Of a stretch of 64,000 nt of DNA, positions 3,344 to 54,182 are shown piece by piece. The notes under the pieces are model-generated. The model saw only the letters and a list, made by a program, of their open reading frames with translations, ran no database searches and was not told the DNA's origin. This DNA is from a virus, in the UHGV virus genome UHGV-1363143; one strand, written 5' to 3'. Both the position numbers and the translations under genes were made by a program. Position 1 is the first letter of the stretch. Each line of letters begins with the position of its first letter.

Positions 3344-6300
3344 TTAATTTAATGATTGTACTAATATTTGATAAGTCCATAATATTCTAGCGAAATATTC
3401 ATATCTAACTTGAGGATATGGTATTATTCCACTTTCAGAAACATACTGCTTAATGTATGGAGCAAATTCTCCACCTGTCATAGGGGATAGGGAATATTTT
3501 TTAATTGTATTTGAAACTGTTCCTTGTCCACTATTATATCCGTAAAGAGTAATTGGCCATGTTCCCCATTCTTTACCTCTTAACGCCATTATGTCCTTAC
3601 GTTTACCCATTAAGTGATCTATTGATCCACTTACTTGAGTCTTGAAGTATTCAGTTGCTTCTGCTGAACCAGGTTTTACATTAGTAGATAATGATGCTCC
3701 ACCTGAGCCTGGAGCTAATTGTAGAAGTCCTGGATCTGGTCCACCAGCATGAGGATTACCACCAGCTTCGACTCCTGACAATGCCAGCATCATGTATGGA
3801 TCAATCTCTACTCCATATTGTTTACTCTTTTCTGCACATACACTTGCAAAGATAGGTGCATAGTTCCACTTTTGATTATTAGTGATAACTCCGTTTGCCC
3901 AACTTTGAGCTCTAGATTTAATATTATCTCTTAAATCACTTGGAAGCTTTTGAATATCTGGATCAAATGAATCTGCAGCTGTTGCCGATATAGCATTTTT
4001 ATCTGCTTCAACAAGTTCTTTAGGTCTACCAAAAGCAAATATTCTTTTATCCCAATTCTTTGTAGGAGATTTTTTAAGATGCTCAGTTATAGGTGCATTA
4101 TTAGTAGAAGCGTGAATGTATTCTCCGTTTCCTATATATATACCTACATGTCCTATTTGACTTAAAGAAGCTTTAGCTAATTCTTCTTGAGTGCTTGGTT
4201 TTGGCTCTTGTGAAGTAAACCATACTAAATCTCCAGGCAATGCTTTATCTTCTTCAGTATGAGGTATAATGATTCCTCCAGTAGAAGGCAAGCATAATGG
4301 ATATTCAGATGATGTATTACCAGCTATACTTGTTAAACCAGCATGTTTATATGCAGCTTCTGCAAAAGAAGAACAGTCCCAATAATGAATGCCATTTACG
4401 GCATTGTCATTATGACTATATCGTGTCGGACCATTAGCGCTATTGGTATTCATAGTATATCTACCTTTACCGTCTTTACATAGCTTAAGTCCATTTTCAA
4501 CATATTCAACTATTTTCTTTCTTATTGCAGCCCCGCCTCCATATAGTCCAGAAACACTTAAATCGCTTTCAGTACCGAAGTCCTCAAAGCTATAATTATT
4601 AGAATCATATTTTAGAGTTTCATATGCTTCTGTTTCTTCAACTACATTTTTGAATTCATCTTCTATAACAGGTTCATTTTCTTTTTCGACTACAGGTTTA
4701 ACTGCTTGGATTCCTTCTGTTTTGTATTCCGCAACATTATGTCTTTGTGCTTCAAGTGGAGTAGGGTTCCAATCCATTTTAAAACCTTCCTCAAAAATCT
4801 CATTAAAAGGCTTAGGTGGAGTAGCTTCAGTATTTAACTTAGCTGGTTCTCTTTCGACATGCATTTCTTCGGTTCTTGTGAAGTCTATATATTCTCCCAT
4901 ACTCATATAGCTCATTTGAATATCATCTAATACTTGAGCAACATTAGCTCCAGTATCGTCTAATATAGCATATACTTGACCAAGTATAGGTTCATATCTA
5001 GTACATGATAAGCATTGGTCTAAAGTCATACTTTGACCATCATTAATTCTGTCATTATGAAGACATCTTATACATTTATATTTACCATAAACATCTTGAC
5101 CTCCATAATATACACAATTAACTTGCATTCTAGATGCTGTCCTAAATAAATTTCTCATTACAGTTGAAAGAATATTTTCTAGTTTAACTAGTCTTCTTTC
5201 AGTTCTTTTGGCCATAGTAATGATTTCATCTTGTACCATAGCAAAATTCTTTGCTACCTCAGGCCCAATGATTGAGTCTGGGTGATTACAGTCATGTAAA
5301 TTAAATGCTACTTCATCAATCTTTACTTTAGGCATATGACTTTCTAACTCTTTTATCTTGTCGTCAGTAGGGAATGGATCGTTATTATTTACAGGTTTCC
5401 CTTCAATTTTTTTAACAGCACCAACATAATCTTTTATGTTAAAGGCTTTCTCACGATTATCAAATTCCTCAACAGACAATGGAACAGAGTTAGATTGAAT
5501 AGGTTTACTCTCTGTACTAGAGTTTAATAAAGTAATAGTTCCTCCAGGGGGAACTGCTAGATCAGGGTATATTGGTTCAACCTCAAGATTATTAGGAGTT
5601 ACTTTACCTGTTAAGGTATCAAAAGCTCTGCTACAATGACTAGATGAAGGAGGGGCATTTTCAACAACAGAATAAGTAAAAACATTATTTTGTTTTGTAG
5701 TAAAGTCTTTAATATCTCCTGGATCATTTGATTTGAATTGAACTATTTTTTCAATATCTCTATGATCTGGTTCAAAGCCTTTAGCATACTTATCCGCATC
5801 TTGTCCATATTTCAAATAGAATTTCCTAACTTCTTCGTCAGTATATGAAGTGTCAGCATTTTCAAGATCTTCATCCTCATAATCCTCATCCTTTATAGCC
5901 TTATATGTATCTTCTAATAATTCAATAAAGTGTCTCCATTTATCTTTTTCAAGTAAATATAGTGGGGAAGGGGATCTATTTAAATCAAATGCTCTCATCA
6001 CATCATCTGGTGAAAGTTCATTCTTTATTAAATAATCAGCAATGAATTTAATAGTTTTTCTTTCTATATCTTCATACTTAGAATCTTTAGGAATTACTAT
6101 TAATATTGATATAGATTCTTCATTTGCCTTGTTATTATAAAGTGCCCTATTAATAAAAGTATTTTTTCCTTCTATAATGTGTTGTGTTTGCTTGTTATCT
6201 GGAACACAATTCATAATATCCTTATCATCAATAATAAAATGATATCCTTTTTCAGATTTAAACTCGTCATCATCAGCTATAATTATTGCACTTTTAGTAA

Positions 6301-6448
6301 ATACAGTGTCTTCCTTATATTCAAATAAATCTGACCTGCAATGAATAGTAATACCTTTTACTTTTTCAAGATCTTTAAGTTTTTTTATTTGTGATTCATC
6401 TGCAATACTATCTGTAATTTCTATATCAATCATTGCTAACGCCTCCAT
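3344..6448 (-). CDS. large multi-domain peptidoglycan hydrolase: amidase-like N-terminus, NlpC/P60 endopeptidase and lytic-transglycosylase (SLT) domains
   Basis: NlpC/P60 region GIHYWDCSSFAEAAYKHAGL...GDLVWF...IGHVGIYIGNGEYIHAS; SLT-like LALSGVEAGGNP...GLLQLAPG; N-terminal GITIHCRSD...GYHFIIDDKD resembles an Amidase_2 domain; Cys-rich central segment; 1034 aa. Confidence 0.7.
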   Translation of the reverse strand: MEALAMIDIEITDSIADESQIKKLKDLEKVKGITIHCRSDLFEYKEDTVFTKSAIIIADDDEFKSEKGYHFIIDDKDIMNCVPDNKQTQHIIEGKNTFINRALYNNKANEESISILIVIPKDSKYEDIERKTIKFIADYLIKNELSPDDVMRAFDLNRSPSPLYLLEKDKWRHFIELLEDTYKAIKDEDYEDEDLENADTSYTDEEVRKFYLKYGQDADKYAKGFEPDHRDIEKIVQFKSNDPGDIKDFTTKQNNVFTYSVVENAPPSSSHCSRAFDTLTGKVTPNNLEVEPIYPDLAVPPGGTITLLNSSTESKPIQSNSVPLSVEEFDNREKAFNIKDYVGAVKKIEGKPVNNNDPFPTDDKIKELESHMPKVKIDEVAFNLHDCNHPDSIIGPEVAKNFAMVQDEIITMAKRTERRLVKLENILSTVMRNLFRTASRMQVNCVYYGGQDVYGKYKCIRCLHNDRINDGQSMTLDQCLSCTRYEPILGQVYAILDDTGANVAQVLDDIQMSYMSMGEYIDFTRTEEMHVEREPAKLNTEATPPKPFNEIFEEGFKMDWNPTPLEAQRHNVAEYKTEGIQAVKPVVEKENEPVIEDEFKNVVEETEAYETLKYDSNNYSFEDFGTESDLSVSGLYGGGAAIRKKIVEYVENGLKLCKDGKGRYTMNTNSANGPTRYSHNDNAVNGIHYWDCSSFAEAAYKHAGLTSIAGNTSSEYPLCLPSTGGIIIPHTEEDKALPGDLVWFTSQEPKPSTQEELAKASLSQIGHVGIYIGNGEYIHASTNNAPITEHLKKSPTKNWDKRIFAFGRPKELVEADKNAISATAADSFDPDIQKLPSDLRDNIKSRAQSWANGVITNNQKWNYAPIFASVCAEKSKQYGVEIDPYMMLALSGVEAGGNPHAGGPDPGLLQLAPGSGGASLSTNVKPGSAEATEYFKTQVSGSIDHLMGKRKDIMALRGKEWGTWPITLYGYNSGQGTVSNTIKKYSLSPMTGGEFAPYIKQYVSESGIIPYPQVRYEYFARILWTYQILVQSLN

Positions 6449-7506: not shown

Positions 7507-8472
7507 TTAATAATTTAATGGATTTAATTTAACAGTTTCTCTTAATTGCTCTTCATCAACATGAGTATATATTTGAGTAGTCGCAACACTTTCATGCCCT
7601 AAGATAAGCTGTAAGCTTCTAATATCAGCTCCATTTTTATACATTAGGGTAGCAGCAGTATGTCTTAGTTTATGAACAGAATACTTCTGTGATAATCCAG
7701 CTTTCTCTAAAGCATTGTTTACAATGTCTTCGACAGCCCTTTTACTTATTCTTCTTTTCTGTTCACTAATAAATAATGCATCCTTACTATCTTCTTTAAT
7801 TTCTTTCTCTATCTTTTTTCTAACCTTTTTATAGCTTTTTATAGCATCTAAGCAAGCATCATTCAGATAGACAAATCTCTGTTTATTACCTTTACCAGTT
7901 ACAACAAGAGTGTCACCTTTAATAGAAGATATATTGATTCCACACAGTTCAGATAATCTCATTCCAGTGTTAAGAAAAACAGTAATAATACATCTATCTC
8001 TTATTGTGTTTCTGCTATCAACTGAATTTATCAGTGTTCTGCTTTCTAAAACAGTTAGATAGATAGGTAATTTCTTTCTAATCTTTGGACTCTCAAGTTC
8101 GGTCCCTAAATCATAATCCAGGTATTTAGCTTTATTATGACAATATTTAAAGAAAGACTTTAGGCAAGCTACCTTTCTAGCTCTTGTAGTTCCTTCATTC
8201 TTTCTGTTATTTTCAAGATATTCTAAAAAACTATAAATATCAGCTAAGTCTATTTCTTTAAGAAAAGAAATATCTACATCCATAATAGAGATCTCGTGGA
8301 AAGGAGTAATTTCATCAACTTTGCCATAATATATTTTTAAAAATCTAAAAAATAAAATCAAATCATTCTTATAAGCATCTACAGTTTGCTTACTTGCACC
8401 TCTAATAGAAGAGAGGTAGCTTAAATAACCTTTAATTACTTTTGGGACATTGGTTTTTGGCTTGCGTATCAA
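7507..8472 (-). CDS. tyrosine site-specific recombinase, XerC/XerD-like (integrase or resolvase)
   Basis: C-terminal catalytic region HKLRHTAATLMYKNGADIRSLQLILGHESVATTQIYTHV (R..H..Y of tyrosine recombinases, very Xer-like); N-terminal SAM-like domain; 321 aa. Confidence 0.85.
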   Translation of the reverse strand: MIRKPKTNVPKVIKGYLSYLSSIRGASKQTVDAYKNDLILFFRFLKIYYGKVDEITPFHEISIMDVDISFLKEIDLADIYSFLEYLENNRKNEGTTRARKVACLKSFFKYCHNKAKYLDYDLGTELESPKIRKKLPIYLTVLESRTLINSVDSRNTIRDRCIITVFLNTGMRLSELCGINISSIKGDTLVVTGKGNKQRFVYLNDACLDAIKSYKKVRKKIEKEIKEDSKDALFISEQKRRISKRAVEDIVNNALEKAGLSQKYSVHKLRHTAATLMYKNGADIRSLQLILGHESVATTQIYTHVDEEQLRETVKLNPLNY

Positions 8473-9471: not shown

Positions 9472-10254
9472 TTATTTTCTGTCAGAATCGGTGCTGTTAA
9501 ATATATTCTTTTTAACCATTAATTTTATTATTCTAGTTAGATACTCATTAGCTTGTGAGTCGAATTCTTTTTCTTTATAAATTGGTCCATAGATTTCCAT
9601 TGTAGTTTGCAAAGTGCGTTCAGCATATTGTAAAAATCTATCTTTTGGAATTGTACCATTTTTTATTCCTAAAAGAAGTCCTCTCATTGGATCTTTATTC
9701 TCATACCATAATGCTGCTTTAAAATCTGTAAAATTATTGTCAGCATATCTTTTTATAAAATTTAGAGATCTAATTGCATGCATAGCTTCTTTTGTATCGT
9801 ATCCAAACTTTTCAACTAAATGTTTTGTTCCTGAAGTTCCTTTTTCTAAGTTCTTCATTCTTTGATTAAAAGTTCCTATACATGTGCTATATAAATTTGA
9901 TAAATTCATTCTAGCGATATGATCTCTCATTTTATATAATTCTTCAACCAGGTCCTGAGTAATCTTATGAGTACCAGTACCTAGTATTAATTCTTCTGTA
10001 AATAGTAATTCTAGAAAATTAGTATTAGCCTTAAAAAATAAGTTTGGTAATTTTCTAATATCGTGAACATCTAGGTCAATTTCATCACCTATATGCATTT
10101 TACTGTATTTTATGTTCTCATACATATCATCAAATGTCGGTAATACAAATACCTTATAGTCTTTATCACTACCAGCTGTATTAAGATTATAATTATGAGA
10201 ACCGACTAAAGCTCTAAAAGCTTCTTTTCTTCCTTCGTGTAATAGTCTGTCCAT
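9472..10254 (-). CDS. Pol-beta-superfamily nucleotidyltransferase (RlaP-like; RNA-repair-associated family inferred)
   Basis: minimal nucleotidyltransferase signature LVGSHNYNLNTAGSDKDYKVFV (GS-x9-SDxD); 260 aa; lies in the same unidirectional block as rtcB. Confidence 0.45.
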   Translation of the reverse strand: MDRLLHEGRKEAFRALVGSHNYNLNTAGSDKDYKVFVLPTFDDMYENIKYSKMHIGDEIDLDVHDIRKLPNLFFKANTNFLELLFTEELILGTGTHKITQDLVEELYKMRDHIARMNLSNLYSTCIGTFNQRMKNLEKGTSGTKHLVEKFGYDTKEAMHAIRSLNFIKRYADNNFTDFKAALWYENKDPMRGLLLGIKNGTIPKDRFLQYAERTLQTTMEIYGPIYKEKEFDSQANEYLTRIIKLMVKKNIFNSTDSDRK

Positions 10255-19920: not shown

Positions 19921-21291
19921 CTAAGCAAGTACTTTAAACTCTCCATTTGGAAGAAGTACATTAATCTCAACTTTATTCACAGTAGTTTCAGTAATTTCAA
20001 CACCTTTATCAGTGTCAGTTTCAGTTTCAACTGTTTGTTTTGAAACTCTACCTTTAATAAGATGACTATGGCCATCTCCTTCATCTACTATTCCATCTAG
20101 ACATCCTGATGTTAAAACTAATCCAAGTTGTCCAATATTAAATGGTAGAAGAGGATTCTTGATAGTTTCATCTAACTTCTCAACTCTTTGATTTGCCCAC
20201 ATCTTATCCATTAAAGAAGATTTTTCAATAATTTGTTCAACTTCTTCTAAGTCCAATGCAGATCCTTTAAATAAATCAATATAGACACTTGATCTTGGTA
20301 AAACATATTCTGTATCAAGTTCTTCAATATTTGCTATTCTTGAAAATTCAAATAATCTTCTTAATTTTGCATACTCTTCTTCTCTAGGTTCTTTGACAGA
20401 TTCCTTTTGGCCAATAATATGAACTAGTCCAAGGTTAGAAAATCCAATACCTTCAGCTTTTATTATTTGAATATTTTTTAAATGTTTACTAAGCATTGAA
20501 CAAATATCTTTGAATAATCTAGTGTAAGGCATTGTTATTACCATTACTCCGTCTGTTCTAAGGTATTTGAACATATCTGCTATATAGCTTTTTTCAATTC
20601 TTTTATTAGCAAAGATATCTTCTTCATCTATTTCTAAGTGAAGTTTCGGTTGAACATATAAGATATCAAATGCATTGTTTTGTATTCTTGAACCTCTCAA
20701 AATACCTTTTACTACCTTATGCATATTTGACTTAGCTCTAGATAACATTACATCATTCGCTTCATTACCATAGGCCAACACTTTGTTTGGAATAATATTA
20801 AATGGATCTATATTTGCTCCATCATAACAATCAGGATAAAACAAAGTTATATCCCTATTTCCTGTTGGAATTATCTTTCTAGATATTTCATACAAAGAAG
20901 AGCTATTGCTTATATCATTCTGTTGCCTATTACTATAAGCTTGGTGCCATTGCAAAGCATATCTGTTAAAATCTGCGGATGAAAAATCTTTAAGCATTAT
21001 CGTGTCAAATTCTTCACATATTGTAGTTAATGCTCTTTTAAATGCGTGCACATCCTCAGCTGTTTGTGCATTGCTTATTTCTAAAAGTATATTTCTATAT
21101 TTAGAATGGAATAAATCTCTTCCAGTAGTAAAATATGCTTCACCTGTTGCCAAAGCTATGTCATATGCTAATGCGTAAAACTTATTTTTGTATGTAAGTA
21201 AGCTATCTGGTTTTGTATCAAGTTTAACTTGATCATTTAAAGTTTTCATTCTTACGATATTGTCTCTGATTGTATATAAACTAAATAACAT
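19921..21291 (-). CDS. hypothetical protein (456 aa)
   Basis: long ORF in the operon frame; no confident motif. Confidence 0.4.
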   Translation of the reverse strand: MLFSLYTIRDNIVRMKTLNDQVKLDTKPDSLLTYKNKFYALAYDIALATGEAYFTTGRDLFHSKYRNILLEISNAQTAEDVHAFKRALTTICEEFDTIMLKDFSSADFNRYALQWHQAYSNRQQNDISNSSSLYEISRKIIPTGNRDITLFYPDCYDGANIDPFNIIPNKVLAYGNEANDVMLSRAKSNMHKVVKGILRGSRIQNNAFDILYVQPKLHLEIDEEDIFANKRIEKSYIADMFKYLRTDGVMVITMPYTRLFKDICSMLSKHLKNIQIIKAEGIGFSNLGLVHIIGQKESVKEPREEEYAKLRRLFEFSRIANIEELDTEYVLPRSSVYIDLFKGSALDLEEVEQIIEKSSLMDKMWANQRVEKLDETIKNPLLPFNIGQLGLVLTSGCLDGIVDEGDGHSHLIKGRVSKQTVETETDTDKGVEITETTVNKVEINVLLPNGEFKVLA

Positions 21292-21394: not shown

Positions 21395-24300
21395 TTATGC
21401 AATAAATTGTTGAAGGATTAAAGAATCCCTATCTCTTTTTGCTTTAATTGTAATAACTTGATTGTTTTTCATATATTTTGTATTTCCTTTATATATTGTA
21501 CTGAATACAGTACTATCAATGTATCCTGATGTAGTTTCTAAAGTTAAGAAGGCCATTGGATTATTATTCTTATCTTTTATCTTCTTAACTCTTCTAACTA
21601 TAGCTTGTAATTGACATACTTCTCCATGTCTAACTCCTTCAAATGAAAATGGTTCAAAATATTGAACTGGATTACTTGTTATAGGTACTTCATATAACAC
21701 AGATTCTATGTCTTGAAGACTAGCTTCTGATTTAAATATCATATCTTTTGAAATTTTAATCTCGGCCAAAGGTTCTTCCTTTCTAGCTTCACAATATTCT
21801 TTATATACTGCTAGTCTATTTTCTTCAAAACATTCAAAAGCTCCTCCAAAAATAGAAACCACAAATGCCTTCTTATTGAATTTACTTGTAACCTTGTCCA
21901 TAGTATCTTTTAAAGAGCTTAATGGTCTTGCAGCGTCTAATGCATCATATGCAACTTTACCTAAGCCTTTAGCTGCAACGAATCCTATTCTTAATTGGTT
22001 ATCTTCTATTGAGAATGGCCATAATGATTTATTTATATCTAATCCTAAGAATCTTATTCCTACTCTTCTACATTCTTGTATTGTTTCAGATATAGATTCT
22101 TTTCTATCATATGCATTTGTTAAAGAGTTCTTCATCCACTCTAACGGATGATATGTCTTTAAGTAAGCTGTGTAATAGCATAATAATGCATAAGCAACTG
22201 CATGAGATTTATTAAAACTATACTTACCAGTATCAAGCATTATATCCCATATTCTAGTTGCTACATCTTCAGGAACTCTATTCTTATTAGCAAGTTCTCT
22301 ATATTCGGTTTCTGCAGCTGCTAATTTTTCTTGTTTCTTTTTAGCAGCAAACTTCATTACTTGGAATGCTCTTTCTAGATCCATACCAAAGTTAACAAGT
22401 ATTTGCATCATTTGTTCTTGATATAAAAGAACACCATTGGTACTAGCTGTAACAGAATCATAGAATGGATGTATAAGTTCAATTTCTCTTTTACCTTCAA
22501 CTACTTGCATATATACTTCATCTAGTTTAGAAGATATGCATGGTCCACGAACTAATGCTAAACAAGCAGCTAGTTCTTCTATTGTTCTAGGTTTTAATCT
22601 ATCCATTCTCTTTTTATAAGTTTCTGATGATATTTGGAATAACGTAGTAGTATTTTTAGATCCTATCGTATCCCAAACATAAGGATTATTTAACCATACA
22701 TCATCATCAAAATCAGCTTCGAAATTAATATCTATTTCTGTAGCTGAAGTTACGTCAAGAGTTGCTAATGATAAATAATCATACTTAATGGCACCTGCAT
22801 ATTCAGCATCTGATAAATTTAATGCTGTGGCCATCATGCCATCGTCTTTTCTATTTTTGATTAATGGGACGTATTCTTTTAAAGGAATAGGACTAATAAG
22901 AGTACCAGCAGCATGTATGCTAGTTGTTTTAGATAAGTTTTCTAATTTCATAGCAGCTTCGAACCATTCTTCATGTTCAGCTTTAATAGTTCTTAATTCT
23001 TCGCTAATTTCAAGAGCTTCTTCAATAGACAAATCAGTTTGCTTTTCTCCATCTTCATCATTGTAATATACTTGAGGAATCAATTTAGCAGTATACTCTG
23101 CAAAATCGCTCTCTATATTGAAAATTCTAGCAGTATCTTTAATAGCAGAACGAGCCTTTCTTATAGTAAAAGTACTAACAAGAGCACAACATTCCTTACC
23201 ATATTTATTAAGAGTATATTCAAACAGTTCCATTCTTCTGTTACTAGCAACATCTAGGTCTACATCTGGAACAGAACCCTTTCTATGAATAGAAATAAAT
23301 CTTTCAAATAATAATCCATACTTAATAGGATCTACTTTTGTTATCCCTATTAGATATGCAATTAAACTTCCTCCTATCGAACCTCTGCCTGGTCCCATTG
23401 GAATATGTTTCTTTTTTGCATAATCATAAATATCTTTAATGATTAATAAATATCCACTAAATCCTACTTCTTTTAAAGTTTCAAGCTCATATTGAGCTCT
23501 ATCATAATAAACTGATGGATCTTTTAATCTATAACTTATTTCATTTAATTTATCTATAGATATTTTTGCAAGATATTCATCCTCATTATATCCCTCTGGT
23601 ATATCTGCTTTAGGCATTTTTATTTTACCATCATACAAATTAGATAAATCTATTTGTGAAGCTATTCTAACTGTATTATCAATAGCTTCTTCTACTATTT
23701 CTCTATCTAGATAAGGAAATAATTCTACTATTTCCTCATGATTCATTAAATAATAACATTTATCAGGATAAATCATAGCGTCATCATGCTTTTTCTTTTG
23801 GGCCATCTTTACATGTTGATCATGTGCTATATAGTCCTCTGCATTTAAATAATGAATGTCGTTAGTTACAACCAGCTTTGTGCAGGTTTCTTTAGCTAAT
23901 TCCACTAATAATTTATTAACTGTTATCTGATCTTCAAAATCACCTGGCTGAATTTCAAGATAAAAGTCAGCAAATATTTCTTTATATTCTTCAATTAATT
24001 TAATTATTTCTTTGTATCTTATATTAATATAATCATCTATAATATCTTCTTGAGATATTTCTATTGGATCTATTCCTGCAGTCTTTAAAACATTGTTGAT
24101 ATTATCCATATGCATTTCTAAGCCTTCAATACCATCATTACTCACTTTAACTATATCCATAATCATTTTAGGTATTCTACCACCTAAACATGCAGATAAA
24201 GCTATTAAGTTTGAACCGTGTTCTCTTAATACTGATATATCTGTACGTGGTTTGTAGTAATATCCATTGAATTGTGAGTCTGCTGATATATGTAAAAGGT

Positions 24301-24583
24301 CTTTATAACCTTGTTTGTTCTTAGCTAATAATACTAAATGATAATACCCTTTTTGTTTTTCAGTACGGTCATTGCACTCATAGGCTTCTAATCCTATTAA
24401 TGGCTTGACACCATGTTCATTGCACTCTTTGTAAAATTCAATTACATTGGCCATAGAACCATGGTCAGTAATAGACAATGCTTCTATGCCTATATTCTTG
24501 GCTTTCTTCACAGCATCCTTAGTTTTTAGTATGCTGTCACCAATTGAACCTTTCGCATAGTGCATGTGTAAAGGTATATACAT
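21395..24583 (-). CDS. dnaE: DNA polymerase III alpha subunit (DnaE-type, N-terminal PHP domain)
   Basis: PHP domain MYIPLHMHYAKGSIGDSIL...ALSITDHGSMANVIEF...LIGLEAY; Pol III alpha core (…YSFNKSHAVAYA…); 1062 aa. Confidence 0.85.
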   Translation of the reverse strand: MYIPLHMHYAKGSIGDSILKTKDAVKKAKNIGIEALSITDHGSMANVIEFYKECNEHGVKPLIGLEAYECNDRTEKQKGYYHLVLLAKNKQGYKDLLHISADSQFNGYYYKPRTDISVLREHGSNLIALSACLGGRIPKMIMDIVKVSNDGIEGLEMHMDNINNVLKTAGIDPIEISQEDIIDDYINIRYKEIIKLIEEYKEIFADFYLEIQPGDFEDQITVNKLLVELAKETCTKLVVTNDIHYLNAEDYIAHDQHVKMAQKKKHDDAMIYPDKCYYLMNHEEIVELFPYLDREIVEEAIDNTVRIASQIDLSNLYDGKIKMPKADIPEGYNEDEYLAKISIDKLNEISYRLKDPSVYYDRAQYELETLKEVGFSGYLLIIKDIYDYAKKKHIPMGPGRGSIGGSLIAYLIGITKVDPIKYGLLFERFISIHRKGSVPDVDLDVASNRRMELFEYTLNKYGKECCALVSTFTIRKARSAIKDTARIFNIESDFAEYTAKLIPQVYYNDEDGEKQTDLSIEEALEISEELRTIKAEHEEWFEAAMKLENLSKTTSIHAAGTLISPIPLKEYVPLIKNRKDDGMMATALNLSDAEYAGAIKYDYLSLATLDVTSATEIDINFEADFDDDVWLNNPYVWDTIGSKNTTTLFQISSETYKKRMDRLKPRTIEELAACLALVRGPCISSKLDEVYMQVVEGKREIELIHPFYDSVTASTNGVLLYQEQMMQILVNFGMDLERAFQVMKFAAKKKQEKLAAAETEYRELANKNRVPEDVATRIWDIMLDTGKYSFNKSHAVAYALLCYYTAYLKTYHPLEWMKNSLTNAYDRKESISETIQECRRVGIRFLGLDINKSLWPFSIEDNQLRIGFVAAKGLGKVAYDALDAARPLSSLKDTMDKVTSKFNKKAFVVSIFGGAFECFEENRLAVYKEYCEARKEEPLAEIKISKDMIFKSEASLQDIESVLYEVPITSNPVQYFEPFSFEGVRHGEVCQLQAIVRRVKKIKDKNNNPMAFLTLETTSGYIDSTVFSTIYKGNTKYMKNNQVITIKAKRDRDSLILQQFIA

Positions 24584-25562: not shown

Positions 25563-26324
25563 CTAAGCTATGTTAACTTTTAAACTTTCTGTTTCTATTG
25601 TTGTTGCATTAAACATATGCAGATCTCCAGTTATTTTATTAAATCCTATAATATTATTTAAAATATTAAAAGTAGTAACTGCACTGGTTATGTTTGCACC
25701 TATGTTTTGAATATTTTCTAACATGATTTCACCACAGCTTGCTGTAGGTTCTTTTATTTCCTCGTCTTCAAGTATTTGAGGAAAGTAAGTACTAGCAGAT
25801 GGAAGTACCACTTCATCACGAGTTCTATAAGCTATTACAGTTTGTCCTGTAAGTTCATCTAAGCTACCACTATTACCAGTATCAATTGCAATAATTCCTG
25901 GGCAATTATGATTAGTAAATTCAAAATCATTAAATGCTTGGTCAATATATTTCCTAGCTTCATTATTATCTACACATGAAACTATTATATTTGTTGTTCC
26001 ATAAGATCTATCTAATAATTTTAAAACATCTTCTTTAGATGATATGTACTTATCGACATAGGATATTTCCATTCCAAATACTGCAGAATACCTATCAGAT
26101 AAAACTTCAGCTTTTAATTTTCCCACATCACTTTCTAAGAATTTTTGTGTTCTTAAATTTTTTTCTTCTACTCTATCACCATCAACTAATATAACTTTAT
26201 GTTTCATATTATAAACCTTGTTATTTCCTATTAGCTGACTTAAAAATGAAATAAGGTGAGAACCAGTCCCACCTACACCTACCACTATTATATTATAAGA
26301 TGAATTCTTTTTAAGCTCTATCAT
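25563..26324 (-). CDS. E1-like adenylating enzyme of the ThiF/MoeB/HesA family
   Basis: VVGVGGTGS Rossmann motif; DGDRVEEKNLRTQ; VSCVDNNEARKYI; C-terminal SCGEIM...AVTTF matches the MoeB CxxxGV region; 253 aa. Confidence 0.8.
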   Translation of the reverse strand: MIELKKNSSYNIIVVGVGGTGSHLISFLSQLIGNNKVYNMKHKVILVDGDRVEEKNLRTQKFLESDVGKLKAEVLSDRYSAVFGMEISYVDKYISSKEDVLKLLDRSYGTTNIIVSCVDNNEARKYIDQAFNDFEFTNHNCPGIIAIDTGNSGSLDELTGQTVIAYRTRDEVVLPSASTYFPQILEDEEIKEPTASCGEIMLENIQNIGANITSAVTTFNILNNIIGFNKITGDLHMFNATTIETESLKVNIA

Positions 26325-26346
26325 TATATTGCCTCCTTACAAGCCT

Positions 26347-26913
26347 TTAGCCTTTAGTTTGGAATTTAAGAAGAACTTCCAATGTTCCAGTAGATTCATC
26401 AAAGTCATAGAATACCTTATCTTTCTTAAAGTTTGGAAAATTATATTCTGTAACTAATTTAACTCTGATATCTTCAAATTTTGCATTGGTATCTTCTTCG
26501 ATATATATTTCTCTACCGAATACTTTAACAATCCTTGGACCATCATATTTAGGTTCTTTTGGTTTTGAACTCTTCTTCTTAGAAGATTTCTTTGCTTCAG
26601 TTTTAGTTCCATCAGGATTTCTATCCTTATCATATTCAACTAAATGATCTATAGCAAAGGCTATTGCATCACATGCATTAGTAAATGCATTTGGATTTAA
26701 TGTAGAATATCCACATTCATTATCTGCAGGAGTTAGAACATCAAATCTTCCATCTCCCCATTCCATTACTCCTATCGTTAAATTTTTATATTTAATTTCT
26801 CTATTTTCTCTAAAGAAAGCCTCAAACTGCTCTCTAGTCATAGACTCTGTAATATTTGTATCCTCCTCATCATGAAGATCGCTTATATAATTAATTGTAT
26901 TTTCTGTTGTCAT
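26347..26913 (-). CDS. protein with a C-terminal ubiquitin-like beta-grasp domain ending in a single Gly
   Basis: C-terminal ~62 aa RIVKVFGREIYIEEDTNAKFEDIRVKLVTEYNFPNFKKDKVFYDFDESTGTLEVLLKFQTKG* has the ubiquitin-like secondary-structure pattern; the ORF ends in Gly immediately before the stop. Confidence 0.5.
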   Translation of the reverse strand: MTTENTINYISDLHDEEDTNITESMTREQFEAFFRENREIKYKNLTIGVMEWGDGRFDVLTPADNECGYSTLNPNAFTNACDAIAFAIDHLVEYDKDRNPDGTKTEAKKSSKKKSSKPKEPKYDGPRIVKVFGREIYIEEDTNAKFEDIRVKLVTEYNFPNFKKDKVFYDFDESTGTLEVLLKFQTKG

Positions 26914-26931
26914 AACATCTCTCTCCTATTC

Positions 26932-27633
26932 TTATCTTAAATTATCTAAAAAGCTTTGATATGTTGGTGTATTGTATGATTGCACTAAAATATTATTATC
27001 AAACGAAGAACCTTCCATTAATTCTAAAAGTTCTTTATATGAAAATGGACTAGAATTACTTCCAATGTACCCATCATTATTATTTGTCATTGATAAAAAC
27101 ATTTCAGGAATCATTACTATATTGCTTAAATCATTTAATTCAAAATCACTTAATGTATTCCCTCCAAGGCATACACTTTTTGTATCGAATACATTACTGT
27201 AAGGGTATCTATATATAGGCATGTCCATAGTTATAGGACCATTTTGCACACATCCTATTCTTAACGAAACGCATTTATTATTACATACTTTAATAGCATA
27301 TAAAGTTCTAGGCATAGCTACTTTCTTGTATACTTTTTTCGCAAGTTTCATATCTGCAGGAACTTGTTCTCTCAATAAAACATACCATTTAGATTTACTA
27401 GAGAATATTTCTTTGACTTGAATTGTAGATATCATATGATCTCCTGGTAGTATATCTGATACTTGAACGTTAGCTGATGAGTTATCAAAATTATCTTCTG
27501 TAGTGGAACAATTTAATAGTGATAATAAAGTTTCAAAACTTATATTTTTATTTGTCTTAACTCCATTTTCATTTTCAACAATAACTTTACAGTAATTACT
27601 ATCATTCAATTCTATGATTGTTCTCTCGCTCAT
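26932..27633 (-). CDS. E2-like (UBC-fold) protein with a variant HPN motif
   Basis: PIYRYPYSNVFDTKSVCLGG corresponds to the UBC HPN(I/V)x3-4GxICL active site with the catalytic Cys conserved; 233 aa. Confidence 0.5.
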   Translation of the reverse strand: MSERTIIELNDSNYCKVIVENENGVKTNKNISFETLLSLLNCSTTEDNFDNSSANVQVSDILPGDHMISTIQVKEIFSSKSKWYVLLREQVPADMKLAKKVYKKVAMPRTLYAIKVCNNKCVSLRIGCVQNGPITMDMPIYRYPYSNVFDTKSVCLGGNTLSDFELNDLSNIVMIPEMFLSMTNNNDGYIGSNSSPFSYKELLELMEGSSFDNNILVQSYNTPTYQSFLDNLR

Positions 27634-28238
27634 TAAGCTACCTCCTTTTCATTTAAAGTTTGTACATTTAATTGTTTTTCATAAAATTCTACTTTTTCCC
27701 TAATCTCTTCTAAAAAGATACAATATGTTTCAAAAAACATATCTATCATAAAATATTCTTCTGGAACAATTATATAAATATAATCATTAAAAATAATCTG
27801 TACATCTGTTACTGTGCTTTCTTCACACATACAGCAATTTTCTGTAAATAATTGAATAAATTTATTTATAAAATCATTGTTATTTAACTTATACTTTATA
27901 AGTTTATCAATATCAGGATTTTCTATTTTCACGGTTAATCCATTTATACAGTCTTTATCATAAGTAGAATATGGTATCTTACCACCTATAGAAATCAATT
28001 CATCTTTCATATACTCATTAGTGCCACAGTAACCAGTTCCTATTGAAGTACCCAAAAGTCCTCCAAGGAATTCTACTTGATCTATGCCTCCATATCCATC
28101 TTCATCAGCCCTTGTATCTATTGTTATATAAGTGCCTTCTTCGTAGATATATCCTAATTTTTTTATTCTCATGCAATTACCTAACATAACTAATTTCCCA
28201 AATAATCTATCTATTTCATCTTCATTAATATCAATCAT
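27633..28238 (-). CDS. hypothetical protein in the Ubl cluster (no JAB/MPN motif)
   Basis: 201-aa ORF whose start overlaps the E2-like gene by 1 nt; no HxHx7Sx2D. Confidence 0.35.
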   Translation of the reverse strand: MIDINEDEIDRLFGKLVMLGNCMRIKKLGYIYEEGTYITIDTRADEDGYGGIDQVEFLGGLLGTSIGTGYCGTNEYMKDELISIGGKIPYSTYDKDCINGLTVKIENPDIDKLIKYKLNNNDFINKFIQLFTENCCMCEESTVTDVQIIFNDYIYIIVPEEYFMIDMFFETYCIFLEEIREKVEFYEKQLNVQTLNEKEVA

Positions 28239-28247
28239 GATTCCCTC

Positions 28248-28547
28248 CTAAAATAAATCAGCTTGTAATGCCTTTTTTTGTGTTTTAGTAGATCTAGCTA
28301 ACCCATTCATTTTTGATGTAGCTGCCATTGAATGTAATAATATTGGATCATTTGTAACCATATCTATTGCCTTATCTAATGTTTCGTCTGTTAAGTTCAT
28401 TATTGTGGCTGCTTCGCAGTCTATGTAATCTGATATTATTGAAATAAGTTCATGTGCTTTTATTTCAACATCAGTTAAAACTTTTTCTTGTTTTATGTTC
28501 TTAATTGAATCATTAAATTTATCAATATTAAATTCTAGTTTTATCAT
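28248..28547 (-). CDS. hypothetical protein
   Basis: 99-aa ORF. Confidence 0.3.
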   Translation of the reverse strand: MIKLEFNIDKFNDSIKNIKQEKVLTDVEIKAHELISIISDYIDCEAATIMNLTDETLDKAIDMVTNDPILLHSMAATSKMNGLARSTKTQKKALQADLF

Positions 28548-28592: not shown

Positions 28593-28871
28593 CTTATTTA
28601 CATAAAGATCTAATACTAATTCATTTTTCTTATTCCTAGAAACTAATATAGTTGCCTTTTCTGTTTTTGTAGGTTTATAATCATCCTCATATTTTGTTAT
28701 AAATATTACTTCAGCCCCTTTTTCATTATCTATAATATTAGCTAGAGGCTGAAAGTCAATCTTGCCAAGGTCAAAGTCAAATGATGCTATAACTTCATCA
28801 TTGACTTTAATCTCTTCGACATAATGAGTCTTATTTTTAAGCCTAATCAAAGTTACAACTATATTATCCAT
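28578..28871 (-). CDS. hypothetical protein
   Basis: 97-aa ORF overlapping the ligA stop codon. Confidence 0.3.
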   Translation of the reverse strand: MDNIVVTLIRLKNKTHYVEEIKVNDEVIASFDFDLGKIDFQPLANIIDNEKGAEVIFITKYEDDYKPTKTEKATILVSRNKKNELVLDLYVNKKEQA

Positions 28872-30762
28872 TTATGATTTCCTTTAACTCATCTAATGAA
28901 TTGATTATAGGAGTACCTAAATCTGTAGCTTTGGTGTACTTAGTAGTACCTTCCTCACCAGGACTAGCTAATAAATAACTTGTCTTAGAAGAGACAGAGC
29001 CACTAGTCTTATGTCCAGCATCCTTAATCATTTGTTCGATTTCTTTTCTAGGAATATCAAATGAACCTGTAATAACAAATGTCTTAATATCTGAATTAGA
29101 AATTTTTTTAGCTACTGTAGTTACATCTAAAGGTCTTACTCCAGCATCCCATAGCATTCCAAATCTTTCTGCTCCATATTTATTAAGATTCTCTATCATT
29201 TTAGGTCCTATTTTTTCAATAGAAGCTATAGTTTTATAACCCGTCTTTACTTCATTTATTAAATTAGGCAAAGTACGAATAGTATTAGCTATATCTTCGC
29301 TAGCAGACTTTCCTATTAAAGGTATGTTAGCTGCTAAAATGAATCTCTTTAATTCAGTTTGTTTTGCTTTTTGAATACTGTTATATAATTTTTCAGCACT
29401 CTTTTCAGCAAACCCTGGTAGATTTAATATATCTTCTTTATGAAAATATAATGGCGTTGTGAAATCATACTCATATTCTTTTTCTTCACAATAATTCATT
29501 ATCTTTATAATAGTTTCTTTTGATAATCCAGTTATATTTAAAGCTTCTCTTGATGAAAGTTTGATTGTTTTACCTAATTCTTGAGCGTCACATTCTTCCC
29601 CAGTGCAATATAATATATTATTTTTAAATTCTGTAGGGGCTCCACATACTGGACACTTCTTAGGAGGTATTATTGGAAAAGTATCTCTAGTTACCTTAGG
29701 TTCACCTTTTATTATTTTAGGTATAACATCATTAGCTTTAACTACAAATACTCTCTCATTAATTCTGATATTAAGGGCGTTAATAATGCTAATATTGTGT
29801 AATGTAGCTCTATTAATTGTAGATCCTAATATTCTAATTGGTTCAATTTCTCCAACGGGTGCAATTATACCAGTTTTCCCTACTTGCCAAGTAACAGATT
29901 TAAGCGTAGTCCATTCACCTTGGGCTTCAAACTTAACAGCTATCGCACCATTAGGATGATGTCTAGTAAATCCAAATTTCTTACTTCCATCATGCTTTAT
30001 GACTAACCCATCAATATCATAATCTAAAGAATCCCTATATTTATCTTCATAAGTTAATATATAATCTAATGCTTCTTCTTCAGTCTCTGGCTTAAAATTA
30101 TCTACAGTATTCCAGCCTAACATTTGTAAAGACATAATTTGATTACTTGAATCATTTGATTCTTCAGTTCTAATCATATTGTAAGCAAAAGCTTTTAATC
30201 CTTTTACTTTATTAATATCAAGTTGTCTAAGCATACCAGCTGCAGCATTACGAGTATTATCAAATGGTTTTTCTCCATTTTTTATTTTTTCTTCATTTAA
30301 CTTATTAAATTCAGATTTTAACATTACAACTTCTGATCTTATAGGAACTTGAACATTACTAAATTCGCCTATTCCATCGACATTCGTTACTTTTAATGTA
30401 ACTACTTCACCAATTTCTCCGTTTCCTCTAGTCACATGTTCTCCACTTGGATATGATACTAAAGTTAATCCATCCATTTTAGGCTGTATAGTAACAGGCC
30501 ATAACCTATGGATATGAGATTTTAATTCATCAATCTTTGTAATTTGGCACTTATCTAATGAAGATATATTTGTTGTATGTTGATATTTAACGCTAGTTTC
30601 ACTAGCTTCTCCTGGCACATAATCATATTCTTCAAGACCAGTTAATTCTAAGTATCTTGCTTTAAGTGCATCATATTCAAAATCTGATATCTCAGGAGAA
30701 TCTTGATTATAATATAAGTTATCATGATAATCTAATAACTTTTTTATTTCATTGGCATTCAT
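28864..30762 (-). CDS. ligA: NAD+-dependent DNA ligase
   Basis: adenylation motif KMDGLT, ligase N-terminal Ia domain, OB/Zn/HhH/BRCT-length C-terminus; 632 aa. Confidence 0.9.
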   Translation of the reverse strand: MNANEIKKLLDYHDNLYYNQDSPEISDFEYDALKARYLELTGLEEYDYVPGEASETSVKYQHTTNISSLDKCQITKIDELKSHIHRLWPVTIQPKMDGLTLVSYPSGEHVTRGNGEIGEVVTLKVTNVDGIGEFSNVQVPIRSEVVMLKSEFNKLNEEKIKNGEKPFDNTRNAAAGMLRQLDINKVKGLKAFAYNMIRTEESNDSSNQIMSLQMLGWNTVDNFKPETEEEALDYILTYEDKYRDSLDYDIDGLVIKHDGSKKFGFTRHHPNGAIAVKFEAQGEWTTLKSVTWQVGKTGIIAPVGEIEPIRILGSTINRATLHNISIINALNIRINERVFVVKANDVIPKIIKGEPKVTRDTFPIIPPKKCPVCGAPTEFKNNILYCTGEECDAQELGKTIKLSSREALNITGLSKETIIKIMNYCEEKEYEYDFTTPLYFHKEDILNLPGFAEKSAEKLYNSIQKAKQTELKRFILAANIPLIGKSASEDIANTIRTLPNLINEVKTGYKTIASIEKIGPKMIENLNKYGAERFGMLWDAGVRPLDVTTVAKKISNSDIKTFVITGSFDIPRKEIEQMIKDAGHKTSGSVSSKTSYLLASPGEEGTTKYTKATDLGTPIINSLDELKEIING

Positions 30763-53856: not shown

Positions 53857-54182
53857 TGAGATCTCTCCTTTTGTTTTAAAAAATATTTATATTTCTTCCC
53901 ATTTAGGGATACATACATATTATTATGACTTGTTTTACTTAAGTGAAGTTTTAAAGCTGGTATATAATGTTTAGCAGCAAATACTTCTCTTAAACCATTT
54001 TTCGAATTATAGAATATTGGCATATATTCTATTTGATTACTTTCTAAATAATCTAAAATTATTACTTTTGTTAATGTGCTATGAGGTTTCCCATTCATAC
54101 TATATAATCCAAATGCTTCAGCTATTTCTTTTGGATATAACATATGCTCTTCAGTTTTTATTTCTAAATAAAACTTATACAT
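53844..54182 (-). CDS. hypothetical protein
   Basis: 112-aa ORF. Confidence 0.3.
   Translation of the reverse strand: MYKFYLEIKTEEHMLYPKEIAEAFGLYSMNGKPHSTLTKVIILDYLESNQIEYMPIFYNSKNGLREVFAAKHYIPALKLHLSKTSHNNMYVSLNGKKYKYFLKQKERSQCHI

What the first reader, a model, noticed from the sequence alone, without database searches (positions are those of the whole stretch)
25563..28238. Phage-borne E2-like / ubiquitin-like / E1-like conjugation module with no recognisable deubiquitinase
Three consecutive minus-strand genes encode components of a conjugation module. The first is a UBC-fold E2-like protein (26932-27633) whose active site reads YSNVFDTKSVCLG, an HPN-to-(Y)SN variant with the catalytic Cys intact. 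The second is a 188-aa protein (26347-26913) whose last ~62 residues form a ubiquitin-like beta-grasp pattern and which terminates in Gly directly before the stop, so it is ready for adenylation without processing. The third is a ThiF/MoeB-type E1 (25563-26324; GxGxxGS and DGDRVEEKNLRTQ motifs) whose only conserved downstream Cys is the MoeB-like CxxxGV residue rather than a crossover-loop Cys. None of the neighbouring ORFs (201, 99 and 97 aa) carries a JAB/MPN HxHx7Sx2D motif. Bacterial E1-E2-Ubl (Bil/6E-type) operons are known as anti-phage systems that tag phage tail proteins. A phage-encoded version, embedded between ligA and dnaE, could serve counter-defence, modify a phage or host protein, or be a hijacked system. 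The Ubl being the C-terminal domain of a larger protein ending in a single Gly is unusual.
Basis: partly seen in the sequence, partly recalled or inferred. Interest (0 to 1): 0.85.

Follow-up and report, generated by a model that had tools for sequence, protein, structure and literature searches.

The report
Phage ubiquitin-like tagging cassette without protease
An uncultivated giant phage carries a compact gene set for attaching a small ubiquitin-like protein to other proteins; it is a protease-less variant of a gene cassette already catalogued on plasmids and phages, and nobody has yet tested what that cassette does.

Summary

The family assignment needs correcting. This is not Bil- or 6E/Bub-like. 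It is a diverged member of the "6d" operon type of Iyer, Burroughs and Aravind (2006), called PRTRC in TIGRFAMs. Relatives occur on Clostridium and Bacillus plasmids, in Bacillus jumbo phages and, fully annotated, in Ralstonia phage Dina. Relatives that have a JAB carry the Ubl fused to it or extended past the Gly. JAB-less ones, like this phage, end exactly at Gly.

Two more syntenic genes belong to the unit: a fast-diverging 201-aa protein translationally coupled to the E2, and a 99-aa protein ending in QADLF.

N-terminal extensions and a terminal [KR]-Gly are the rule in this Ubl family (71 of 75 cluster representatives), so they are not unusual. The target and biological role are unknown. 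This is a new variant of a known, uncharacterised kind, of moderate interest.

The parts
28248..28547 (-). 99-aa small protein, possible fifth component; C-terminus ...KKALQADLF-COOH
   Evidence: It lies 9 nt upstream of X. A syntenic ~95-107-aa protein sits in the same position in L002, L004, L006, L008 and L012, and all end in an acidic/aromatic tail (DLF, DLF, DLF, EIY, DFF). BLASTP from the window protein gives E 3e-11 to L006 and 5e-4 to L002. Beyond those only position and tail are shared. Only 2 of 80 coding-strand ORFs in the window end this way.
27633..28238 (-). X: 201-aa acidic protein (pI 4.2, no His), fast-diverging partner gene of the E2
   Evidence: Its stop codon overlaps the E2 start (TAATG). 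A gene of 185-261 aa lies immediately upstream of the E2 in L001, L002, L004, L006, L008, L009, L012 (three tandem copies), L013 and L014. No residue is invariant across the set. No Pfam, NCBIfam or PADLOC hit.
26932..27633 (-). E2-like protein, 233 aa (Prok-E2_D type): small N-terminal beta3-alpha domain plus a UBC-like core
27169..27195 (-). E2 active-site segment, Asn147 ... Cys155 (SNVFDTKSVC)
   Evidence: Codons verified. Both residues are invariant in 28 sequences. The Cys is also visible at the same motif position in the E2 translations of L001, L008-L014.
26347..26913 (-). 188-aa Ubl protein: N-terminal alpha-beta4-alpha domain (residues ~25-95), Lys/Ser-rich linker, C-terminal beta-grasp
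   Evidence: Alignments A5/A6. AF2 model with both domains at pLDDT ~88-91 and the linker below 50.
26350..26550 (-). Beta-grasp (ubiquitin-like) domain ending at Gly188 (codon 26350-26352), followed directly by the stop codon at 26347-26349
25563..26324 (-). ThiF-type E1-like adenylyltransferase, 253 aa, single adenylation domain
   Evidence: Pfam ThiF E 2.6e-17. Best NCBIfam match is TIGR03736 PRTRC_ThiF at 97 bits, covering positions 10-243 of 245. PDB sequence relatives are MccB, UBA6, UBA5 and UBA3, over the nucleotide-binding half only.
25734..25736 (-). Cys197 of the E1 (within the invariant Ser196-Cys197 pair), candidate thioester-forming residue
   Evidence: Invariant in 10 E1s spanning this phage, Clostridioides, Bacillus and Sporosarcina elements, Bacillus phage WH1 and the PRTRC ThiF of phage Dina. 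A catalytic role is inferred, not shown.

Best explanation
This is a co-transcribed cassette, p99-X-E2-Ubl-E1, packed directly behind ligA in the replication-gene block of a ~240-kb phage from an anaerobic, low-GC (probably clostridial) host. It is a JAB-less, diverged member of the 6d/PRTRC class of prokaryotic ubiquitin-like conjugation operons.

Proposed mechanism:
1. The 253-aa ThiF-type E1 binds the C-terminal beta-grasp of the 188-aa protein. By analogy with other single-domain E1-likes, the E1 is probably a homodimer.
2. The E1 adenylates the free carboxylate of Gly188. No processing is needed, because the ORF stops right after that Gly.
3. The acyl group probably passes through the invariant E1 Cys197 and then to Cys155 of the E2-like protein. 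Asn147 of the E2 sits at the canonical -8 position.
4. From the E2 the Ubl, carrying its N-terminal domain as cargo, is attached to lysines of target proteins.
5. The fast-diverging X protein, translationally coupled to the E2, most likely serves as the E2's specificity partner (E3-like adaptor) or as a substrate.
6. No isopeptidase is encoded, so the modification would be one-way unless a host enzyme removes it.

Shown: the gene content, the folds, the conserved catalytic-type residues, the mature Gly terminus, the synteny, and the link between JAB presence and the form of the Ubl C-terminus. Inferred: every chemical step, the role of X, and the target. Because the cassette travels with the replication modules of phages and plasmids, I think it serves the mobile element (replication or establishment, or action on host proteins) rather than host defence.
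For: - **Genes and signals:**. Gaps between genes are -1, 18 and 22 nt. The promoter-like and terminator-like sites found across the region are no more numerous than in shuffled sequence, so they neither define nor break an operon.
- **E2:**
- **Ubl:**
- **E1:**
- **Same cassette with conserved order** in phage contigs of up to 249 kb, mostly between ligA and dnaE.
- **Same cassette type in other elements:** C. difficile plasmid pHSJD-312, where NCBI names the E2 'prokaryotic E2 D family protein'; B. thuringiensis pHS18-1; Bacillus phage vB_BceM_WH1; Sporosarcina; Oscillospiraceae.
- **JAB presence tracks the Ubl terminus.** Ubl-JAB fusions occur in L009, L013, L014 and P0144. Phage Dina has a Ubl extended 63 aa past ...RKG plus a separate JAB. 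The JAB-less phage clade and the C. difficile plasmid end exactly at KG.
- **Literature:** the 6d operon type is defined in PMC1779556. The PRTRC cassette's function 'has not been studied' (PMC13366799).
Against: - The window proteins miss curated cut-offs: PRTRC_ThiF 97 bits against 144.75, and Prok-E2_D 24.5 bits against 25.
- NCBIfam does not recognise PRTRC A, B, C, E or F here.
- The Ubl does not match Pfam Prok_Ub. Its profile aligns to PRTRC_C only weakly (E 0.006, 6% probability).
- The His downstream of the catalytic Cys, described as absolutely conserved in 6d E2s (PMC1779556), is absent.
- No biochemical evidence exists for any 6d/PRTRC system, so conjugation itself is unproven for the whole class.
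- Some relatives (L012) show X and E2 with no E1 or Ubl in the contig.
Confidence: 0.72

Rival explanations
1. A captured anti-phage or superinfection-exclusion system. The phage carries a bacterial Ubl defence operon and uses it to tag proteins of competing phages, as Bil tags tail proteins.
For: The characterised bacterial E1/E2/Ubl operons (CBASS type II and Bil) act in anti-phage defence, and Bub is proposed to (PMC10557695, PMC11601596). The E1 gives weak PADLOC hits to E1-E2 and BilD models. In L004 the cassette sits next to DNA methylases and a PemK toxin. X diverges fast and is triplicated in L012, as expected for a target-recognition module in an arms race.
Against: No PADLOC model matches the E2, the Ubl or X. 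In three phage lineages whose E2s are only ~53-59% identical to the window's, the cassette keeps its place between ligA and dnaE. That looks like long vertical inheritance inside the core replication block, not a variable defence island. 6d/PRTRC cassettes are typical of plasmids, ICEs and phages themselves (PMC1779556).
Confidence: 0.13
2. A self-directed assembly system. The E1 and E2 ligate Gly188 of the 188-aa protein to lysines of other copies of the same protein, building covalent polymers or a scaffold rather than tagging other proteins.
For: A Lys/Ser-rich disordered linker (KKSSKKKSSKPKEPK) lies directly before the beta-grasp and its Lys-rich character is conserved. Lys152, Lys183 and Lys187 in the Ubl domain are invariant. 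No DUB is present to edit chains. Bacterial Ubls with N-terminal domains are known to self-assemble (PMC11601603).
Against: This is purely architectural inference. The N-terminal domain is shared only by the closest ~10 family representatives, whereas the Ubl domain and the enzymes are shared much more widely. A general mechanism therefore cannot depend on that domain.
Confidence: 0.08
3. An adenylation or sulfur-carrier system of the ThiF/MoeB-ThiS/MoaD or MccB type, with no protein conjugation.
For: The E1 is a single-domain ThiF-family protein. Its best PDB sequence matches include MccB. MoaD appears among the structural neighbours of the beta-grasp.
Against: ThiF and MoeB NCBIfam models score no more than 44 bits, against 97 for PRTRC_ThiF. 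An E2-like protein with invariant Asn and Cys is an obligate neighbour. None of the window ORFs scanned against Pfam hit MoaE, ThiG, a rhodanese or a desulfurase. Relatives fuse the Ubl to a JAB peptidase.
Confidence: 0.03
4. A partition or maintenance cassette, the reading sometimes attached to PRTRC because of its ParB-related gene.
For: The PRTRC name and the literature's 'partitioning cassette' label (PMC13366799). Relatives sit on large low-copy plasmids.
Against: No PRTRC_F or other PRTRC-specific family was detected among the eight ORFs scanned around the cassette. The rest of the window was not scanned against NCBIfam, and only the larger ORFs were scanned against Pfam. The label has never been tested (PMC13366799). 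The enzymology encoded is protein modification, not DNA segregation.
Confidence: 0.04

Closest known systems
6d-type operon of Iyer, Burroughs & Aravind 2006 (PMC1779556), equal to the PRTRC system (TIGR03735-03742); examples are Ralstonia phage Dina gp02-gp07 and proteobacterial plasmids and ICEs
   Same: Separate small ThiF-type E1 (best NCBIfam match), Prok-E2_D-type E2 with a conserved Cys, a small beta-grasp protein whose conserved end is [KR]-Gly, carriage on mobile elements including phages, and unknown function.
   Different: No JAB/JAB-N peptidase and no PRTRC E, F or ParB-related genes detected. The E2 lacks the conserved His after the Cys. The Ubl is not recognised by Prok_Ub and carries an extra N-terminal domain. 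The curated PRTRC cut-offs are not reached. X and p99 are extra genes.
Firmicute plasmid and phage cassettes: C. difficile pHSJD-312, B. thuringiensis pHS18-1, Bacillus phage vB_BceM_WH1 gp214-216, Sporosarcina L013
   Same: The gene order X - E2 - (Ubl) - ThiF. E1 identity is 31-45%. The Ubl domain is demonstrably homologous (hhalign E ~2e-5 to 3e-4). These cassettes often sit next to replication genes (FEN and DnaX in L013, near dnaE in WH1).
   Different: The Bacillus and Sporosarcina versions fuse the Ubl to a JAB peptidase. The C. difficile plasmid, like this phage, is JAB-less with a free KG end, but it has a short Ubl (123 aa) and an extra 203-aa gene.
Bil (BilABCD, types I and II; type II is '6C')
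   Same: A thioester-type E2 with a catalytic Cys, a Ubl and an E1. The cascade conjugates the Ubl to target lysines.
   Different: The Bil E1 is a large IAD-AAD-CYS protein, and a JAB DUB (BilC) is part of the system. Bil is chromosomal defence against phage. Only a weak partial PADLOC BilD hit was found here.
Bub ('6E'/DUF6527)
   Same: Ubls with diverse N-terminal domains. Some types lack a JAB.
   Different: Bub E1 and E2 lack catalytic cysteines and work through oxyesters. Bub also has a DUF6527 serine protease and fused E2-E1 or Ubl-E2 proteins (PMC11601596). None of this applies here.

Membership tests
6d operon / PRTRC system | ThiF-family E1 of the PRTRC_ThiF type (TIGR03736) | tested here: inconclusive
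   It is the best NCBIfam hit, full length (positions 10-243 of 245), at 97 bits, but below the curated cut-off of 144.75. The next family scores 43.7 bits. A >=90%-identical cluster-mate is named PRTRC ThiF in NCBI nr.
6d operon / PRTRC system | E2-like protein of Pfam Prok-E2_D with a conserved Cys | tested here: met
6d operon / PRTRC system | Absolutely conserved His C-terminal to the E2 catalytic Cys (PMC1779556) | tested here: not met
   No invariant His appears in A1 or A7. The stretch corresponding to FTHPNH of Dina PRTRC_B reads MTNNND here.
6d operon / PRTRC system | Small beta-grasp Ubl with a conserved C-terminal Gly (Pfam Prok_Ub / PRTRC_C) | tested here: inconclusive
   The beta-grasp fold and the terminal KG are met. 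There is no Prok_Ub hit for this protein or its relatives. hhalign to Dina PRTRC_C gives E 0.006 at 6% probability.
6d operon / PRTRC system | JAB peptidase with a JAB-N domain (PRTRC_A) | tested here: not met
   No JAB motif in any ORF of the window. No Pfam or NCBIfam hit.
6d operon / PRTRC system | Accessory PRTRC E, F or ParB-related proteins, or the alpha-helical protein with conserved charged residues | tested here: not met
   No NCBIfam hit for any neighbour. X has no invariant residue. p99 shares with Dina PRTRC_E only an acidic-hydrophobic C-terminal tail.
Bil (BilABCD) | Multidomain E1 (IAD-AAD-CYS), BilB E2, BilC JAB and BilA Ubl | tested here: not met
   The E1 is 253 aa with a single domain. 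PADLOC gives only a partial BilD hit (E 1.3e-5, residues 40-130) and nothing for the E2, Ubl or neighbours.
Bub (6E/DUF6527) | E1 and E2 lacking a catalytic Cys, plus a DUF6527 protease | tested here: not met
   Invariant Cys in the E2 and the E1. No DUF6527 hit.
ThiF/MoeB sulfur-carrier adenylyltransferases | Equivalog-level match to ThiF or MoeB, and a ThiS/MoaD partner with downstream sulfur chemistry | tested here: not met
   Scores of 20-44 bits against cut-offs of 152-450. No such partner genes among the scanned window ORFs.
Canonical UBC E2 superfamily (fold level) | UBC core fold with Asn about 8 residues before the catalytic Cys | tested here: met

The most novel reading that the evidence does not exclude
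The cassette is a one-way protein-tagging device that mobile elements aim at the host replication machinery. The small p99 protein would dock through its SSB-tail-like or clamp-binding-like C-terminus (...QADLF-COOH) on replisome or SSB-interacting proteins. X and the E2 would then covalently attach the 188-aa Ubl protein to them. This would be a bacterial-virus counterpart of PCNA/replisome ubiquitylation, used to take over or protect DNA replication. The hints behind this reading are:
- the cassette's constant position among ligA, dnaE, FEN, dnaX and Rad52-like genes;
- the recurrence of acidic-aromatic C-terminal tails on the small upstream gene in independent lineages;
- the absence of any DUB.
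Probability: 0.08. Interest if true: 0.85.

Novelty: new variant of a known kind. Interest (0 to 1): 0.45.

Why it matters
Of the five bioinformatically defined bacterial E1/E2 operon classes (6a-6e), I found no experimental study of 6d/PRTRC in the searchable literature. A 2026 paper states that its function has not been studied. It is also a class that lives on plasmids, ICEs and phages themselves.

The phage clade described here is a stripped-down version. It has four or five small separate proteins, a Ubl that needs no processing, and no deconjugating enzyme. That makes it a convenient reconstitution target for asking whether 6d systems really conjugate proteins, and onto what.

If a phage uses its own ubiquitin-like tagging during infection, it would mirror the host's Bil and CBASS systems from the other side of the conflict. 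As it stands, the finding is a well-supported annotation and family reassignment, not a new principle.

Tried and rejected
- **DNA similarity.** A DNA-level search of the cassette against GenBank phages found nothing.
- **PDB sequence search with the E2 profile.** No hit, so the fold had to be tested by modelling.
- **JAB hypothesis for X.** Rejected. X has no histidine, no motif and no invariant residue.
- **Sequence membership of the Ubl in Prok_Ub.** Not demonstrable.
- **Promoter and terminator scan.** No more sites than chance.
- **Link between the cassette and the Cdc48/VAT-like AAA ATPase in the same window.** Rejected. Among the 40 listed records of 127 with AAA homologues, none is a phage in which I found the cassette's E1, and none of the 16 phage records with an E1 homologue appears among them.
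- **AFDB Foldseek.** The library was unavailable.
- **Literature searches.** Searches for Prok-E2, PF14460, '6D operon' and phage Ubl systems returned no functional study.
- **P0129.** This 3561-aa protein matched the N-domain profile in repeats. It is an MBG-repeat surface protein and I regard the match as spurious.
Full report
**1. Observation**

The region holds a run of same-strand, tightly spaced ORFs behind ligA (28864-30762):
- a 97-aa ORF;
- a 99-aa ORF, called p99 here (28248-28547);
- a 201-aa ORF, called X here (27633-28238);
- a 233-aa ORF (26932-27633);
- a 188-aa ORF (26347-26913);
- a 253-aa ORF (25563-26324).

Two small ORFs and dnaE (21395-24583) follow. The four main genes each have an AGGAG-type ribosome-binding site. 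X and the 233-aa gene overlap as TAATG, and the next gaps are 18 and 22 nt.

The window as a whole is ~30% GC with every gene on one strand. It encodes an integrase, an antirepressor, RtcB and RlaP, ThyA, FolD, DnaE, LigA, a GroEL-like chaperonin, anaerobic NrdD, DnaG, SNF2 and UvrD helicases and a sigma factor.

Identical or near-identical proteins lie on 238-249-kb contigs, one of them an IMG/VR viral genome. NCBI nr labels them Caudoviricetes sp.. A jumbo phage of an anaerobic low-GC host is a fair description.

**2.

*E1.* Pfam ThiF matches at E 2.6e-17. The best NCBIfam model by far is PRTRC_ThiF (97 bits, full length), against at most 44 bits for ThiF, MoeB, TcdA and UbaA models. PDB sequence neighbours are MccB, UBA6, UBA5 and UBA3, over the nucleotide-binding half only.

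No JAB motif occurs in any ORF of the window.

**3. What it is**

The same order, X-E2-Ubl-ThiF, is found in phage contigs whose E2s are only 47-59% identical to this one, usually again between ligA and dnaE. In one of these loci an HNH endonuclease and several small genes are inserted between the E2 and the Ubl.

The E1 finds 31-45%-identical homologues in several other elements:
- 110-145-kb Clostridioides, Clostridium and Thermoanaerobacterium plasmids;
- large Bacillus plasmids;
- Bacillus jumbo phages (vB_BceM_WH1, Edson, KLEB27-3);
- more distantly, Ralstonia phage Dina.

| Element | Arrangement |
|---|---|
| C. difficile pHSJD-312 | X-like, 'prokaryotic E2 D family protein', a 203-aa gene, a 123-aa Ubl ending NKG-stop, ThiF |
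| B. thuringiensis pHS18-1 | One 331-aa protein between E2 and E1: Ubl domain ending ...MKKKG, followed by a JAB domain (HSHHNMSEIPSVLD; Prok-JAB E 0.002) |
| Sporosarcina locus L013 | Ubl-JAB fusion |
| Oscillospiraceae locus L014 | Ubl-JAB fusion |
| Cluster representative P0144 | Ubl-JAB fusion |
| Phage WH1 | JAB-containing gp215 between E2-like gp214 and ThiF gp216 |
| Phage Dina | Complete annotated PRTRC system (E, C, F, B, A, ThiF); PRTRC_C is a clear Prok_Ub (E 2.6e-25) that runs 63 residues past ...AVGRKG |

A simple rule emerges. Where a JAB is present, the Ubl is fused to it or extended past the Gly and must be cut. Where there is no JAB (this phage clade and the C. difficile plasmid), the ORF stops at the Gly.

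The operon type matches row 6d of Iyer, Burroughs and Aravind 2006: a Ubl with a C-terminal Gly, a JAB with JAB-N, an E1-like, an E2-like without the HPN His, and a diverging helical protein. B. cereus and B. thuringiensis are listed as carriers (PMC1779556). 6E is Bub, which uses oxyester chemistry without catalytic cysteines. 6C is type II Bil (PMC11601596, PMC10557695).

**4. Extent of the Ubl family**

A profile of the 188-aa family was searched against 1.84 billion cluster representatives. It found only 75 at E<=1e-3. Almost all matches run to the last residue of the protein, and 71 of the 75 end in [KR]G. Their lengths range from 71 to 265 aa. The N-terminal domain seen here is shared only by the top ten or so.

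A broader Ubl-domain profile aligns significantly to the Ubl parts of the Bacillus and Sporosarcina fusions (E ~2e-5) and to the C. difficile Ubl (E 3e-4).

The Ubl is therefore a member of a small family not covered by Pfam. It is securely tied to the firmicute 6d cassettes. It is tied to proteobacterial PRTRC_C only through fold, terminal motif and operon context. N-terminal domains on bacterial Ubls are already described for Bil and Bub (PMC11601603).

**5. Catalytic residues**

Ten E1s, spanning this phage through to Dina's PRTRC ThiF, were aligned. The following are invariant:
- the P-loop glycines;
- Asp50, Asn56, Gln60, Lys71 and Arg78;
- Asp119, which I infer to be the Mg-binding Asp of the VDNN motif;
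- Asp148;
- a Ser196-Cys197 pair.

By spacing from the P-loop, about 180 residues, Cys197 is where I would expect the crossover-loop cysteine of ThiF, MoeB or UBA5. This is an inference from my knowledge of those enzymes.

The E2 cysteine is visible at the same motif position in every relative examined. The His that Iyer et al. describe as absolutely conserved after the Cys is not present in this clade.

**6. Two further components**

A gene of 185-261 aa always lies immediately upstream of the E2. This holds even where the E1 and the Ubl-JAB sit 4-5 kb away (L001, L014) and where they are absent from the contig (L012, which has three tandem X paralogues). The family is acidic, has no invariant residue and has no domain hit. 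I read it as a fast-evolving binding partner of the E2 (adaptor or substrate), not an enzyme.

One gene further upstream lies a ~100-aa protein. It is homologous among the close loci (BLASTP E 3e-11 and 5e-4) and positionally conserved in more distant ones. It ends in an acidic-aromatic tail:

| Locus | C-terminal tail |
|---|---|
| Window p99 | QADLF |
| L006 | EDLF |
| L002 | SDLF |
| L004 | NDLF |
| C. difficile plasmid (L008) | EEEIY |
| Clostridium MAG (L012) | TEDFF |
| B. thuringiensis plasmid (L009) | DEDFPFF |
| Phage WH1 gp212 | ESDFI |
| Dina PRTRC_E | GLDLPI |

Only 2 of 80 coding-strand ORFs in the window end this way. The tails resemble the SSB C-terminal tip and the QxxLF clamp-binding motif, as I recall them. 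I picked the ORFs by eye, and homology outside the close clade is not demonstrable, so this remains a lead.

**7. Mechanism and role**

The best-supported reading is a working E1-E2-Ubl cascade:
1. The E1 adenylates Gly188.
2. The Ubl is transferred through E1 Cys197 to E2 Cys155.
3. The Ubl is attached to target lysines, with X assisting and with no dedicated deconjugation.

Every chemical step is inferred. I found no biochemical study of any 6d/PRTRC system, and a 2026 paper says the function 'has not been studied' (PMC13366799).

Two observations suggest a function for the element itself: the cassette is stably placed inside replication-gene blocks in several lineages, and it is restricted to plasmids, ICEs and phages. 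A captured defence or exclusion system, self-polymerisation through the Lys-rich linker, sulfur-carrier chemistry, and partitioning are the rivals. They are weighed in the structured fields.

**8. Novelty**

The kind has been known bioinformatically since 2006 and has a TIGRFAM name. Phage-borne copies are annotated in GenBank and noted in the literature.

What is new is a coherent JAB-less phage and plasmid clade with these features:
- a ready-made Ubl terminus;
- an extra Ubl N-terminal domain;
- loss of the E2 His;
- two additional syntenic genes.

I rate it a new variant of a known kind, with interest 0.45.

Noticed in passing
window 28248-28547 (-); L002:5082-5405, L004:3779-4096, L006:5113-5403, L008:3254-3541, L012:3477-3785, L009:2768-3079, L010:755-1138, L011:1410-2000: A small (~95-127 aa) protein near the 5' end of the cassette ends in an acidic-plus-aromatic C-terminal tail in every lineage looked at: QADLF, EDLF, SDLF, NDLF, EEEIY, TEDFF, DEDFPFF, ESDFI, and GLDLPI for Dina PRTRC_E. 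The tails resemble the SSB C-terminal tip or a clamp-binding motif. Background in the window is 2 of 80 ORFs.
   Followed up: partly
window 54182-54559 (-) and 54570-56228 (-): A 552-aa AAA+ ATPase whose best PDB matches are VAT and Cdc48/p97 D2 domains (E 1e-51 to 1e-43). Directly after it comes a 125-aa protein ending ...NQKDDPF, another SSB-tip-like tail. Among the 40 listed phage records with AAA homologues (of 127), none overlaps the 16 phage records that have a homologue of the cassette's E1, so I see no link to the Ubl system.
   Followed up: partly
L012:3984-6485: A Clostridium sp. MAG contig has three tandem X-like paralogues followed by an E2-like gene. No Ubl or E1 is present anywhere in the 10.6-kb contig, and the downstream genes are on the opposite strand.
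   Followed up: no
L001 (MT835919.1) and L014: In GC-rich gut elements the system is split. In L014 a Ubl-JAB fusion plus ThiF lie ~4 kb upstream of X-E2, and in L001 a ThiF homologue lies ~5 kb upstream. In both, X-E2 is followed by a ~275-aa gene I guessed to be Rad52-like, and in L001 also by an SMC-like ATPase and a possible primase. These three labels are my reading of the translations and were not tested. A DUF6094-type methyltransferase homologue seems to lie between the two halves, resembling window 19921-21291.
   Followed up: no
L002:6721-8740: An HNH endonuclease and six small ORFs are inserted between the E2 and the Ubl genes in one phage lineage, without disrupting either gene.
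   Followed up: no
L006:8149-12542; L010 record LC597490 194434-198407: dnaE next to the cassette is split into pieces in some relatives. In L006 there is a LAGLIDADG-like ORF between a PHP/polymerase part and an HHH_6 part. In phage WH1 dnaE is annotated as three CDS. In the window it is a single 1062-aa ORF.
   Followed up: no
L008:802-1452: The C. difficile plasmid pHSJD-312 has a YiiX/YebB-like NlpC/P60 cysteine hydrolase about 3 kb upstream of its JAB-less cassette. It could be an alternative deconjugating enzyme. I did not look for an equivalent small papain-fold gene in the window; only the 1034-aa protein at 3344-6448 has an NlpC/P60 domain.
   Followed up: no
window 2111-3325, 9472-10254, 7507-8472 (-): An RNA-repair pair (RtcB ligase and an RlaP-type nucleotidyltransferase) and a tyrosine recombinase lie in the same block, unusual cargo for a phage replication region.
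   Followed up: no
model mb28b0defaf9e, residues 1-45 of the E2-like protein (window 27499-27633): The E2-like protein has a conserved N-terminal beta3-alpha mini-domain (invariant Ile7, Glu8, Cys15, Lys16) with no counterpart in canonical E2s. Its function is unknown.
   Followed up: no
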